From Trichormus sp. ATA11-4-KO1 (GTDB lineage Bacteria > Cyanobacteriota > Cyanobacteriia > Cyanobacteriales > Nostocaceae), in NCBI GenBank assembly GCA_019358915.1, contig JAHHIM010000013.1:32001-96000 (forward strand): a stretch of DNA of 64,000 nt, in the 5' to 3' direction. Position numbers and translations under genes: made by a program. This document shows positions 23,097-26,698 of this stretch, one piece after another (positions within the stretch are counted from its first letter, which is position 1; every line of letters begins with the position of its first letter). The notes below the pieces were generated by a model. That model was given only the letters and a program-made list of their open reading frames with translations, searched no databases and was not told the origin of the DNA.

Positions 23097-24570
<1,474 letters not shown>

Positions 24571-24840
24571 ATGTAAATTGTACCACCTTGATTATGAATG
24601 CGGATGAGGTGTTTACAATTTATGAGGAGTGAGAAGAGCTTATTCTCCGCTTTATTGCACTTTATTTTAAAAGTAACGGTTGTACTGCTGACAAGAAGCC
24701 AATTGTTGTTAGCTTGCTTCACTTCTGGGCTGCAATACATACAACGAAGGCGATTGTTTTTGGGGTTGTCAGTGCAACAGCAATGCTTGAATCAAAGCAG
24801 CCATTGAGATACGCTATAACCCAGCATTTACAGCATCTTC

Positions 24841-25143
24841 ATGAAGTTTGAAATTTTTACGCCTCTCGGATTTATGGTTAGAACATCCGAAGAGTATTGG
24901 CAACGGTTGATCATCAAGCATCCTGATATTGAGGAGTTAGAGGAGCTAATTCGATTAGCTCTTGCCATACCGGACGAAGTTCGACACAGTAGCCGAGATG
25001 CAGAAGTATTATTGTTTTATCGGGTACGGGGAGAAGAACGTTGGGTTGTTGCGGTTGCACGGCGCTTAAATGGAGATGGATTCCTCATCACAGCTTACCA
25101 AACTGATGCGATTAAGGAGGGAGAAACAGTATGGCTCAAATAA
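24841..25143 (+). CDS. DUF4258-like (BECR/RelE-fold) putative toxin
   Basis: 100 aa, KHP...PDEVR.S..D...LFY...GFLITAY; overlaps the following small acidic gene. Confidence 0.65.
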   Translation: MKFEIFTPLGFMVRTSEEYWQRLIIKHPDIEELEELIRLALAIPDEVRHSSRDAEVLLFYRVRGEERWVVAVARRLNGDGFLITAYQTDAIKEGETVWLK

Positions 25144-25367
25144 AGGTGTTTTACGAGCCGGAGACAGAGCTATTAAGCGTATTTTGGCAAGTTCCAAGAA
25201 AAAATCAAATTAGTACTGAGCTTGGAGATGGTGTGATCTTGATAAAAGATGGGGCAAGTGGTGAGCCAATTGGGTTAGAGGTTTTGTCCTACCGTCCTGG
25301 GGACGACCGCTTTGATACTGTGAGTGTTGAGTTGGGGCAAATAAGTTCGATGCAACCAGCCAGCTAA
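25131..25367 (+). CDS. DUF2283-family putative antitoxin
   Basis: KVFYEPETELL...ELGDGVILIKD...GEPIGLEVL pattern. Confidence 0.7.
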   Translation: MAQIKVFYEPETELLSVFWQVPRKNQISTELGDGVILIKDGASGEPIGLEVLSYRPGDDRFDTVSVELGQISSMQPAS

Positions 25368-25448
25368 CAACCCGGTTGGAGCGGATTGACACAGAATCTT
25401 GGTTGGGCTGCAAAAGCTGCTAGCAACCGCAAAACTTGACCGTTGGGC
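25362..25448 (+). mobile_element. Integron attC-like recombination site (partly decayed)
   Basis: R'' AGCTAAC contains the upstream stop codon; GTTGGAGCGGATTG ... CAACCGCAAAAC forms the stem; R' is GTTGGGC; 87 bp. Confidence 0.7.
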
Positions 25449-25511
25449 TGCTGCGTTCGGCTTGACTCAGGTGCAAGTTTTGAACAGCTTAAACAGGTAA
25501 GAGGGCGAGTT

Positions 25512-25997
25512 ATGGAAATGTCGAAAGGTGAACTGACCTTTGTATTTTTGGCGGACAGACAAGATGCAATCCCAACTGTAGCACAATGGTATTATGAAGA
25601 GTGGGGCAGAGTTCCTGACAATTCGGTTGAGCAAACGATTGAACGGATAAAAGGCAAACTCAACTGCGATAAACCTCCTTTTCACATTCTGGCAATTTCA
25701 AAGGATAGCGTTCTGGGGGTTGCTCAATTTAAGCTACGCGAGACGAGCATCTATCCAGAAAAAGAGTTTTGGCTTGGAAGTCTTTTTGTTGCTCCTAAGT
25801 TCAGAGGTTGTGGTATCGGGTCAGCTCTAGCAGAAGAAATTGCTGTCATTGCCAAAGGTTTCGGGGTCAAATATCTTTATCTGCAAACGGATGCTTTGGA
25901 TGGAGGTTTGTATAAGCGTCTTGGCTGGAAAATCATCGAGACAACCGAATACAATAGCGTGCGAGTGGCTGTCATGGTAAGGCAACTGGTTGGGTGA
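25512..25997 (+). CDS. GNAT family N-acetyltransferase
   Basis: WLGSLFVAPKFRGCGIGSAL (motif A), LYLQT, LYKRLGW; RBS GAGGG at 25501. Confidence 0.9.
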   Translation: MEMSKGELTFVFLADRQDAIPTVAQWYYEEWGRVPDNSVEQTIERIKGKLNCDKPPFHILAISKDSVLGVAQFKLRETSIYPEKEFWLGSLFVAPKFRGCGIGSALAEEIAVIAKGFGVKYLYLQTDALDGGLYKRLGWKIIETTEYNSVRVAVMVRQLVG

Positions 25998-26080
25998 TAG
26001 ACCGAGCAGAAACACACCAACAACAGCAGAAAACCTTGAACTTTCACCGATAGACTCTTTATATTTGGTTTTTCCTGTCA

Positions 26081-26698
26081 ATGCGTAAGTATTATAAATA
26101 TATTATTTTTTACAAACCCTATGGAGTTCTCAGCCAATTTACACAGGAAAGTCCCAAACATATCACCTTGAAAGACTATATCCAGGTTGCCGATGTTTAT
26201 CCTGTAGGACGTTTGGACTGGGACAGTGAAGGTTTATTGTTGTTGACGAACGATGGAAAATTACAACATCGCCTCGCCCATCCTCGATTTGGACATCAAC
26301 GAACTTATTTGGTGCAGGTAGAGCGCATTCCTGATATAGATGCTATAAACAAGTTACAAAATGGTGTGGAAATTCAAAATTACCGCACTCAGCCAGCCCA
26401 AGTACGACTATTATCAGCAGAACCGCAGCTACCTGAACGTAATCCGCCAATTAGATTTCGGAAAAATATCCCCACAGCATGGTTGGAGATGACATTAACC
26501 GAAGGAAAAAATCGCCAGGTGCGGCGCATGACTGCGGCGGTAGGGTTTCCCACTTTGCGACTAGTCAGGGTAAGCATAGCCCATCTAAATCTCAATGGTC
26601 TACAGCTAGGTCAGTGGCGCGATCTCACGCCATGTGAACTGAGACTTCTGCATAAATTGCCTCAAAACTACAAAAGAGTTTCTAGCGCTAGGACATAA
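26081..26698 (+). CDS. RluE-like rRNA pseudouridine synthase
   Basis: [31 protein letters not shown]. Confidence 0.92.

What the first reader, a model, noticed from the sequence alone, without database searches (positions are those of the whole stretch)
24708..26024. Integrase-less integron cassette pair (toxin-antitoxin + GNAT) between thiC and the RluE-like gene
Seen: the attC-like site at 25362-25448 has R'' AGCTAAC overlapping the antitoxin stop, a GCGG-A-TTG / CAA-CCGC stem with an unpaired base, and R' GTTGGGC. The exact reverse complement of R'', GTTAGCT, lies at 24708-24714, as expected for the start of an integrated circular cassette (24709-25442). Cassette 2 starts at G/TTGGGC, carries the GNAT gene and ends at a CCAAC-AAC (about 26015-26024) with the rest of its attC missing. 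Established: TA modules and GNATs are common cassette cargo, and attC clusters lacking intI (CALINs) exist. Inference: the cassettes were captured at a secondary site and are decaying, since the L' box has mismatches. No intI is present in this window.
Basis: partly seen in the sequence, partly recalled or inferred. Interest (0 to 1): 0.75.

Follow-up and report, generated by a model that had tools for sequence, protein, structure and literature searches.

The report
Stranded integron cassettes shared between genera
Two integron gene cassettes (a predicted toxin-antitoxin pair and an acetyltransferase gene) sit without their integrase in a variable gap between two housekeeping genes of a cyanobacterium, and the same damaged block lies at the same spot in another genus, likely passed on by ordinary homologous recombination; this is a known and common kind of element.

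Summary
The cassettes are real. A covariance model built from 27 other cyanobacterial attC sites hits 25362-25448 (bottom strand, 53.5 bits). Intact copies of both cassettes occur in arrays elsewhere and begin at the same G|TT positions. Corrections: cassette 2 ends at 26026-26032, not at CCAAC; with one attC this is a SALIN, not a CALIN; the attC is likely a chimera of two subfamilies and is predicted not to fold. The DNA before 24708 is neither attC nor attI, which fits off-target (attG) insertion. The genome has only broken intI genes. thiC-rluE is a variable gap (47 of 60 relatives, 0.2-3.6 kb). Two genomes of another genus carry the same block and junction with far less divergence than the flanking genes (fourfold sites 0.08-0.10 versus 0.38), so it moved laterally, likely without IntI. 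Such attC sites occur in 108 of 150 family genomes. The scan noted related cassette loci on three other pieces of this genome. Known kind; modest interest.

The parts
23097..24470 (-). thiC, left core flank (TPP riboswitch at 24477-24573 upstream)
   Evidence: Pfam ThiC_Rad_SAM E 1e-191; Rfam RF00059
24633..24671 (+). 39-nt remnant of a GmrSD_N (DUF262) / PD-T4-2_A-like gene, an earlier occupant of the gap
   Evidence: 85-95% identical to that gene, which is intact beside thiC in G470, G338, G552, G422, G002; family names; G001 shares the remnant to 24664
24708..24714 (+). G|TTAGCT: crossover point and R' core of cassette 1
   Evidence: exact complement of R'' AGCTAAC; homology to cassette copies in G205, G077, G150 starts here; upstream DNA not attC-like or attI-like
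24709..25442 (+). cassette 1 (734 bp; 762 bp in intact array copies)
   Evidence: copies between two attC sites in G205 and G077
24841..25143 (+). 100-aa predicted BECR-fold (RelE/BrnT/colicin D-like) toxin, DUF4258-like
   Evidence: no Pfam hit itself; 11 of 52 homologues weakly hit DUF4258; model pLDDT 89; the top 19 structural matches are all BECR-type toxins by their titles, best Z 7.3, rmsd 3.1, 87 aligned
25131..25367 (+). 78-aa predicted antitoxin, DUF2283-like; overlaps the toxin gene by 13 nt
   Evidence: Pfam DUF2283 E 0.014, below cut-off; atlas 0.91-0.94 to DUF2283-named clusters; predicted to bind the toxin, score 0.89 vs best control 0.00
25362..25448 (-). attC, 87 nt, impaired and likely chimeric (left arm and centre of one subfamily, last 11 nt of the right arm of another)
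25443..26032 (+). cassette 2, attC lost after the R'' box
   Evidence: 78% DNA identity, no gaps, to an intact cassette in G278 from G|TT on
25512..25997 (+). 161-aa GNAT acetyltransferase, substrate unknown
   Evidence: Pfam Acetyltransf_1 E 1e-12; no NCBIfam family over cut-off; 129 of 161 residues identical to the G278 cassette protein
26026..26032 (+). GCAGAAA, remnant of the R'' box of cassette 2; homology ends here
   Evidence: in register with GCACAAC of G278; 24 of 40 identical before, 7 of 40 after
26061..26090 (+). end of a short dispersed repeat that supplies the rluE start codon
   Evidence: 5 places in the genome within 3 mismatches of its 21-nt core; separate repeat contigs in run X2; G001 has a different rluE start
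26081..26698 (+). RluE-like pseudouridine synthase, right core flank
   Evidence: TIGR00093 over cut-off; best equivalog RluE, below its cut-off

Best explanation
This is a pair of integron gene cassettes, a predicted toxin-antitoxin module and a GNAT gene, stranded without integrase or attI in the variable thiC-rluE gap, where they were likely placed by off-target IntI recombination and are predicted to be no longer excisable. Shown: cassette identity and boundaries, lack of attI/attC before the first cassette, loss of the second attC, broken intI genes elsewhere in the genome, and lateral sharing of the block with genus g180. Inferred steps: (1) a cassette circle or array piece recombined through the bottom strand of its attC with a chromosomal GTT site just behind the remnant of an older defence-like gene (about 0.6); (2) a slip at the CCGC shared by two attC sites removed one or more cassettes and made the present chimeric attC (about 0.7); (3) a deletion removed the last attC; (4) the block then crossed between genera (about 0.9), likely by homologous recombination in the thiC leader and the start of rluE (about 0.7), direction unknown; (5) the toxin-antitoxin pair, predicted to be an RNase blocked by direct binding, likely persists because losing it is costly, while GNAT and attC erode.
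For: attC model hit; family covariation, 13 of 18 pairs with two-sided changes, 92.7% paired vs 23-38% slid. Intact cassette copies with the same boundaries. The 18 nt before 24708 score -32 bits on an attC right-arm matrix; 78% of 15008 background GTTR sites score as high. The family attI core is conserved beside 7 of 9 relatives' intI and at own C25 only; none here. IntI: C5 lacks residues 1-91, C25 lacks 34-234. Right arm is 2 (window) and 1 (G337) changes from ACAACTTCACC but 5 and 6 from the arm matching its own left side; none of 16 natural sites with that arm has this left arm. G337/G390: fourfold-site divergence 7/69 and 6/71 in the TA genes vs 302/781 and 300/789 in five flanking genes, Fisher p 4e-7 and 9e-8; GNAT remnant plus tail 106 of 106 nt identical; on an rluE tree they group (92/88) with six genomes lacking the block, path 0.20 vs 0.046-0.049 on the TA tree; thiC leader 93-95% vs 41-82% in other relatives shown. 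Three different deletions (G337, G390, run X5) start after the antitoxin stop. Toxin fold and complex (0.89 vs best control 0.00; mark reached by 116 of 157 solved and 2 of 215 mismatched pairs; contacts agree 98%, partner pLDDT at least 80).
Against: The far half of the original target site is gone, so an attG cannot be rebuilt; 24672-24707 is of unknown origin. G337/G390 lack the cassette's 5' end, so they do not confirm the insertion point. Sister species G001 shares the defence-gene remnant but holds other cassettes, reversed, so the order of events is open. Folding prediction is fallible: the C5 attC, with well-matched arms, also fails it (0.14). The assembly is a 73-contig draft, so an intact intI could be missing. 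No promoter-like site was found in front of the toxin gene. Structural Z of 7.3 is in the range that the tool calls common, and no catalytic test was done. Three deletions are few and were found through the TA genes or the junction.
Confidence: 0.75

Rival explanations
1. The pair is the leftover of a larger integron or array that once stood here or was moved here by rearrangement; attI or the upstream attC was later deleted up to the crossover point, so no attG event is needed.
For: The chimeric attC implies a longer array once; the locus is riddled with deletions; broken integrons are common in this genome and family; G001 also has an attC here.
Against: A random deletion would have to stop exactly at G|TT, where homology starts. 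No intI or attI trace here; no IntI match in any of 60 relatives' loci.
Confidence: 0.15
2. The gap holds a preferred secondary site still served in trans by IntI, and the genera acquired the cassettes independently.
For: attC at this locus in G000, G001 and G337; IntI over cut-off in 11 of 151 family genomes.
Against: The non-attC right junction is identical in G000, G337, G390; G001's cassette is reversed and joins elsewhere; only 2 of 65 fetched sources have an attC hit; the g180 deletions do not join at G|TT; own intI genes are broken.
Confidence: 0.05
3. The block was inherited vertically from the common ancestor of g1 and g180 and lost in other lineages.
For: Same position and junction in both genera; g180 has the most similar thiC leader after G001.
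Against: A non-coding GNAT remnant with 0 changes in 106 nt cannot sit beside 0.38 fourfold divergence under vertical descent; rluE tree.
Confidence: 0.04
4. Chance look-alike: ordinary genes with accidental GTT/AAC motifs.
For: The bottom strand folds no better than shuffles.
Confidence: 0.01

Closest known systems
[quoted passage not shown]
   Same: One recognisable attC, no intI or attI nearby, cassette starts at a GWT (GTT) in non-att DNA near host promoters' region.
   Different: Two cassettes with the last attC lost; chimeric attC; target cannot be rebuilt; later spread between genera; the paper's experiments used IntI1-3 in E. coli and V. cholerae and its text does not mention cyanobacteria.
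CALIN; Cury et al. 2016, PMC4889954 (passages)
   Same: Cassette tandem away from intI; the four origins they list are the rivals here.
   Different: Needs at least two attC; one full site and a 7-nt remnant are present.
[quoted passage not shown] 2017, PMC5635113 (abstract and outline only)
   Same: Fixed core flanks, rapid cargo turnover (Uma2, GmrSD_N-HEPN, BrnT pair, these cassettes), raised identity reaching into the flanks.
   Different: Here the exchange is between genera and the cargo is integron-derived.
Toxin-antitoxin and acetyltransferase cassettes as common cargo; Ghaly et al. 2021, PMC8618304 (passages). DUF4258 as BECR-fold RNase; bioRxiv 10.64898/2026.08.28.747851 (passages)
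   Same: Two-ORF overlapping cassette with BECR-like fold and a predicted binding partner; GNAT cassette.
   Different: This DUF4258-like/DUF2283-like pair has no curated family hit and no test found.

Membership tests
attC site | R'' with AAC and R' with GTT flanking inverted L boxes with extrahelical bases | tested here: met
   (alignment to model)
attC site | hit to an attC covariance model on the bottom strand | tested here: met
   own model of 27 cyanobacterial sites, 53.5 bits; IntegronFinder's model was not available
attC site | bottom strand folds into the recombinogenic hairpin | tested here: inconclusive
   predicted not to; 5 of 6 other own sites do, one with matched arms does not
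attC site | recombined by IntI | not testable with these tools
   needs an assay
integron gene cassette | ORF(s) between G|TT and a complementary R'', found in other arrays | tested here: met
   cassette 1 in G205, G077; cassette 2 in G278
SALIN | exactly one attC, no other att site and no intI nearby | tested here: met
   one significant hit in 64 kb; no attI; no intI on C13
SALIN of attG origin | insertion at a 5'-GWT-3' non-att site with an empty allele in relatives | tested here: inconclusive
   GTT junction in non-att DNA; no exact empty allele found in 300 family genomes
CALIN | at least two attC sites | tested here: not met
   remnant at 26026-26056 not above background
complete integron | adjacent intI and attI | tested here: not met
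type II toxin-antitoxin pair | two small overlapping genes, toxin fold | tested here: met
   Z modest
type II toxin-antitoxin pair | direct binding of the two proteins | tested here: inconclusive
   prediction supports, does not show: 0.89 vs control 0.00
type II toxin-antitoxin pair | toxicity and rescue | not testable with these tools
   needs expression tests
recombination-renewed HGT hotspot | conserved core flanks with variable cargo and recombination tracts entering the flanks | tested here: met
   crossover points not mapped

The most novel reading that the evidence does not exclude
In this cyanobacterial family IntI acts mainly as a rare seeder: it drops cassettes once at off-target sites in variable gaps between core genes, and they then travel between species and genera by homologous recombination of the flanks, with toxin-antitoxin cassettes outlasting their neighbours. 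That would explain attC sites in 108 of 150 genomes against IntI over cut-off in 10 of those 150, and this locus would be a dated natural record of the two-step route.
Probability: 0.35. Interest if true: 0.55.

Novelty: new member of a known kind. Interest (0 to 1): 0.32.

Why it matters
As an element it is ordinary: isolated cassettes outnumber CALINs in published counts and this attC family is in most genomes of the host family. Its value is as a clean natural case: both cassette boundaries are fixed by intact copies, and the block shows a second life after the integron, crossing genera with no integrase and keeping the toxin-antitoxin genes through three deletions. It also gives a cyanobacterial attC model, an attI core and an untested DUF4258-like/DUF2283-like pair. 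No paper on such cassettes in Nostoc-type genomes came up; supplementary tables of Cury 2016 and Loot et al., not read, may list them.

Tried and rejected
Similarity of the left junction to C13:15808 is chance: it lies inside an ABC-transporter ORF. G229 match to 24710-24735 lies in repeat-like DNA, not a cassette. A decayed attC before 24708: left- and right-arm matrices at background; the model's 12-bit match at 24671-24714 is on the wrong strand, E 2.1. A right-arm remnant at 26030-26056: -0.7 bits, reached by 5-10% of random windows; dropped. Extending the GmrSD_N remnant to 24703: not supported beyond about 24671. L108 looked like a cassette-1 copy but is a different cassette. IntI L-box recombination as source of the chimera: reported as very rare (PMC4792948 passages), so microhomology slip preferred. 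Foldseek gave no match at E<=0.001; PADLOC has no hit for the three cargo proteins. First attC heuristic was too crude. Exact-junction scans gave 2 genome records that appear to be the g180 loci already held and the window's own record; not counted again. No RNA holder listed. Runs X2 and X3 repeat the G390 and G337 deletions and X1 may be the source; not independent. No name found for the 26061-26090 repeat (listing only). IntegronFinder not available.

Full report
Observation. All four motifs are at the stated places. A BLAST and pattern scan of the own genome found the same 86-88 nt family at C25, C10, C5 and C73. I collected 52 such sites from fetched loci, left out the 20 with a left arm like the window's and 5 of unusual length, aligned 27 and built a model with the canonical bottom-strand structure. 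The pairs covary: 92.7% paired, 13 of 18 pairs with two-sided changes, 23-38% when slid (the seeds were chosen partly for arm complementarity, so this is inflated). The model finds one significant site in the window, 25362-25448 on the bottom strand, 53.5 bits. In the genome it finds 8 sites at E<1e-4; six score 68-82 bits (four of them were in training; the two that were not score 79 and 78), the window's 53.5 and one truncated site 41.

Cassette boundaries. In 300 class genomes one holds the GNAT DNA (G278, 78%, no gaps), and the match runs from the G|TT to the tail. There the cassette lies between two attC sites. From G|TT to the end of R'' is 590 nt in both, which puts the window's R'' remnant at GCAGAAA, 26026-26032; identity is 24 of 40 before it and 7 of 40 after. 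Cassette 1 has copies between two attC sites in G205 and G077 (762 bp, against 734 here) and a copy without attC in G150; identity starts at GTT. Most of the other 26 TA loci shown lack the cassette leader, so the module also lives outside cassettes.

What lies upstream. The 18 nt before 24708 score -32 bits on an attC right-arm matrix, below 78% of background GTTR sites, against +11.8 for the real attC. The attI core is conserved upstream of intI in 7 of 9 relatives' loci examined and at own C25; nothing like it is here. 24633-24671 is a remnant of a GmrSD_N gene (PD-T4-2_A-like by PADLOC) that stands intact with a HEPN gene beside thiC in several relatives. So cassette 1 begins at a GTT in non-att DNA, as attC x attG insertion predicts (GWT consensus, Loot et al., passages). 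This step is inferred: no empty allele was found in 300 family genomes.

State of the attC. The left arm and centre belong to the subfamily whose right arm ends TCAACCGGAAC; the window has AAAACTTGACC and G337 ACAATTTCACC, 2 and 1 changes from ACAACTTCACC but 5 and 6 from the expected arm. Of 16 natural sites with that second arm none has the window's left arm and most have GCGTTGGTGCGG. The simplest reading is a slip at the shared CCGC between two attC sites, dropping what lay between, then point changes. The site is predicted not to form the hairpin, though one well-matched own site fails the same test.

Integrase. TIGR02249 finds C5 (over cut-off but lacking residues 1-91) and C25 (lacking 34-234, next to attI and cassettes), plus a short fragment near the end of C37. 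No whole intI was found in this draft assembly. In the family, 108 of 150 genomes have an attC hit (29 candidates scored per genome) and 11 of 151, own included, have IntI over cut-off.

The locus. Among 60 relatives chosen as closest by thiC, 47 have rluE 221-3616 nt from thiC, with Uma2, GmrSD_N-HEPN and other cargo; the cargo genes of the window occur in 2 (G337, G390). The model hits only G001 and G337 among 65 sources. G001, the sister species, shares sequence to 24664 and then has a reversed attC and a BrnT pair across a contig break. In 388 family genomes 10 carry the TA DNA at E<=1e-60: the two g180 genomes here, seven after atpC, one elsewhere.

Lateral sharing. G337 and G390 have the TA genes, part of the attC, the GNAT 3' end and the same non-attC right junction. 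Fourfold-site divergence from the window is 7/69 and 6/71 in the TA genes but 0.38 over thiC, rluE and three further genes; the dead GNAT remnant and tail are identical over 106 nt. On an rluE tree of 24 rows they group with six block-free genomes (92/88, short of the tool's star), not with window and G001. Identity is raised in the thiC leader (93-95% vs 41-82%) and the first 100 nt of rluE (89-92% vs 43-86%) among the 30 rows shown. An identical illegitimate junction excludes independent IntI insertions, so the block moved locus to locus, likely by homologous recombination, as described for hotspots (Oliveira 2017, abstract). Direction is open; the window holds the fullest copy. Three deletions (25449-25926 in G337, 25404-25925 in G390, 25408-26012 in run X5) remove GNAT and attC DNA, none joins at G|TT, all spare the TA genes.

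Cargo. The 100-aa protein folds with pLDDT 89; the best 19 structural matches are CdiA, colicin D/E5, BrnT, RelE, YoeB, ParE, HigB-type toxins (Z 7.3-4.8), modest scores but one superfamily. The 78-aa protein is DUF2283-like. The complex prediction supports binding (0.89, best control 0.00; mark reached by 116 of 157 solved and 2 of 215 mismatched pairs), over invariant toxin residues 26-29, 50, 84, 86, 87. RNase activity, toxicity and expression are untested. The GNAT has no specific family.

Verdict. A SALIN-type cassette pair, new member of a known kind, common in this family; three sister loci of this genome were already noted by the scan. The lateral, integrase-free second transfer is the one point of more than routine interest. 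The host is taken as Nostoc/Anabaena-like from homologue names. The terms R', R'', L box and BECR membership of the listed structures rest partly on recall and on the passages cited.

Noticed in passing
L181-L186, L188: In seven other family genomes the same toxin-antitoxin module (truncated in two) follows atpC and is followed by a decayed attC left arm and a second copy of the atpC 3' end; same design as the duplicated cupin end at own C25.
   Followed up: partly
L010:5190-8620 (G000:C25): Decayed integron (internally deleted intI, attI, cassettes) whose last attC crossover runs straight into a duplicate of the 3' part of the neighbouring cupin-like gene.
   Followed up: no
L121-L127, L010:7500-7730: Conserved attI region of this family with several ATACGG..CCGTAT inverted boxes ending at AATAG|TT; a usable attI definition for these integrons.
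   Followed up: partly
window 24633-24671; L021, L022, L086-L090, L159: GmrSD_N (PD-T4-2_A-like) plus RiboL-PSP-HEPN gene pair recurs in the thiC-rluE gap of scattered relatives; the gap looks like a defence-cargo hotspot.
   Followed up: partly
window 26061-26090: The rluE start codon and first codons come from the end of a dispersed repeat in G000, G337 and G390; G001 and other relatives have a different start.
   Followed up: partly
L036, L035 (G001:C21, C149): Sister species has an independent, reversed BrnT-type cassette with attC in the same gap, split by a contig break with matching short ends that suggest an insertion sequence.
   Followed up: partly
L076:3900-5800 and L038: Behind the same TetR-like gene, G000 and G001 carry different cassettes ending in the same G|TTATGCAG flank.
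   Followed up: no
L120 (G012:C14): Full-length intI in GC-rich DNA without the family attI; possibly foreign or a contaminating contig.
   Followed up: no
L047 (G150): Cassette-1 copy that also starts at GTTAGCT in non-attC DNA and has lost its attC right after R''; a second natural attG-like case.
   Followed up: partly
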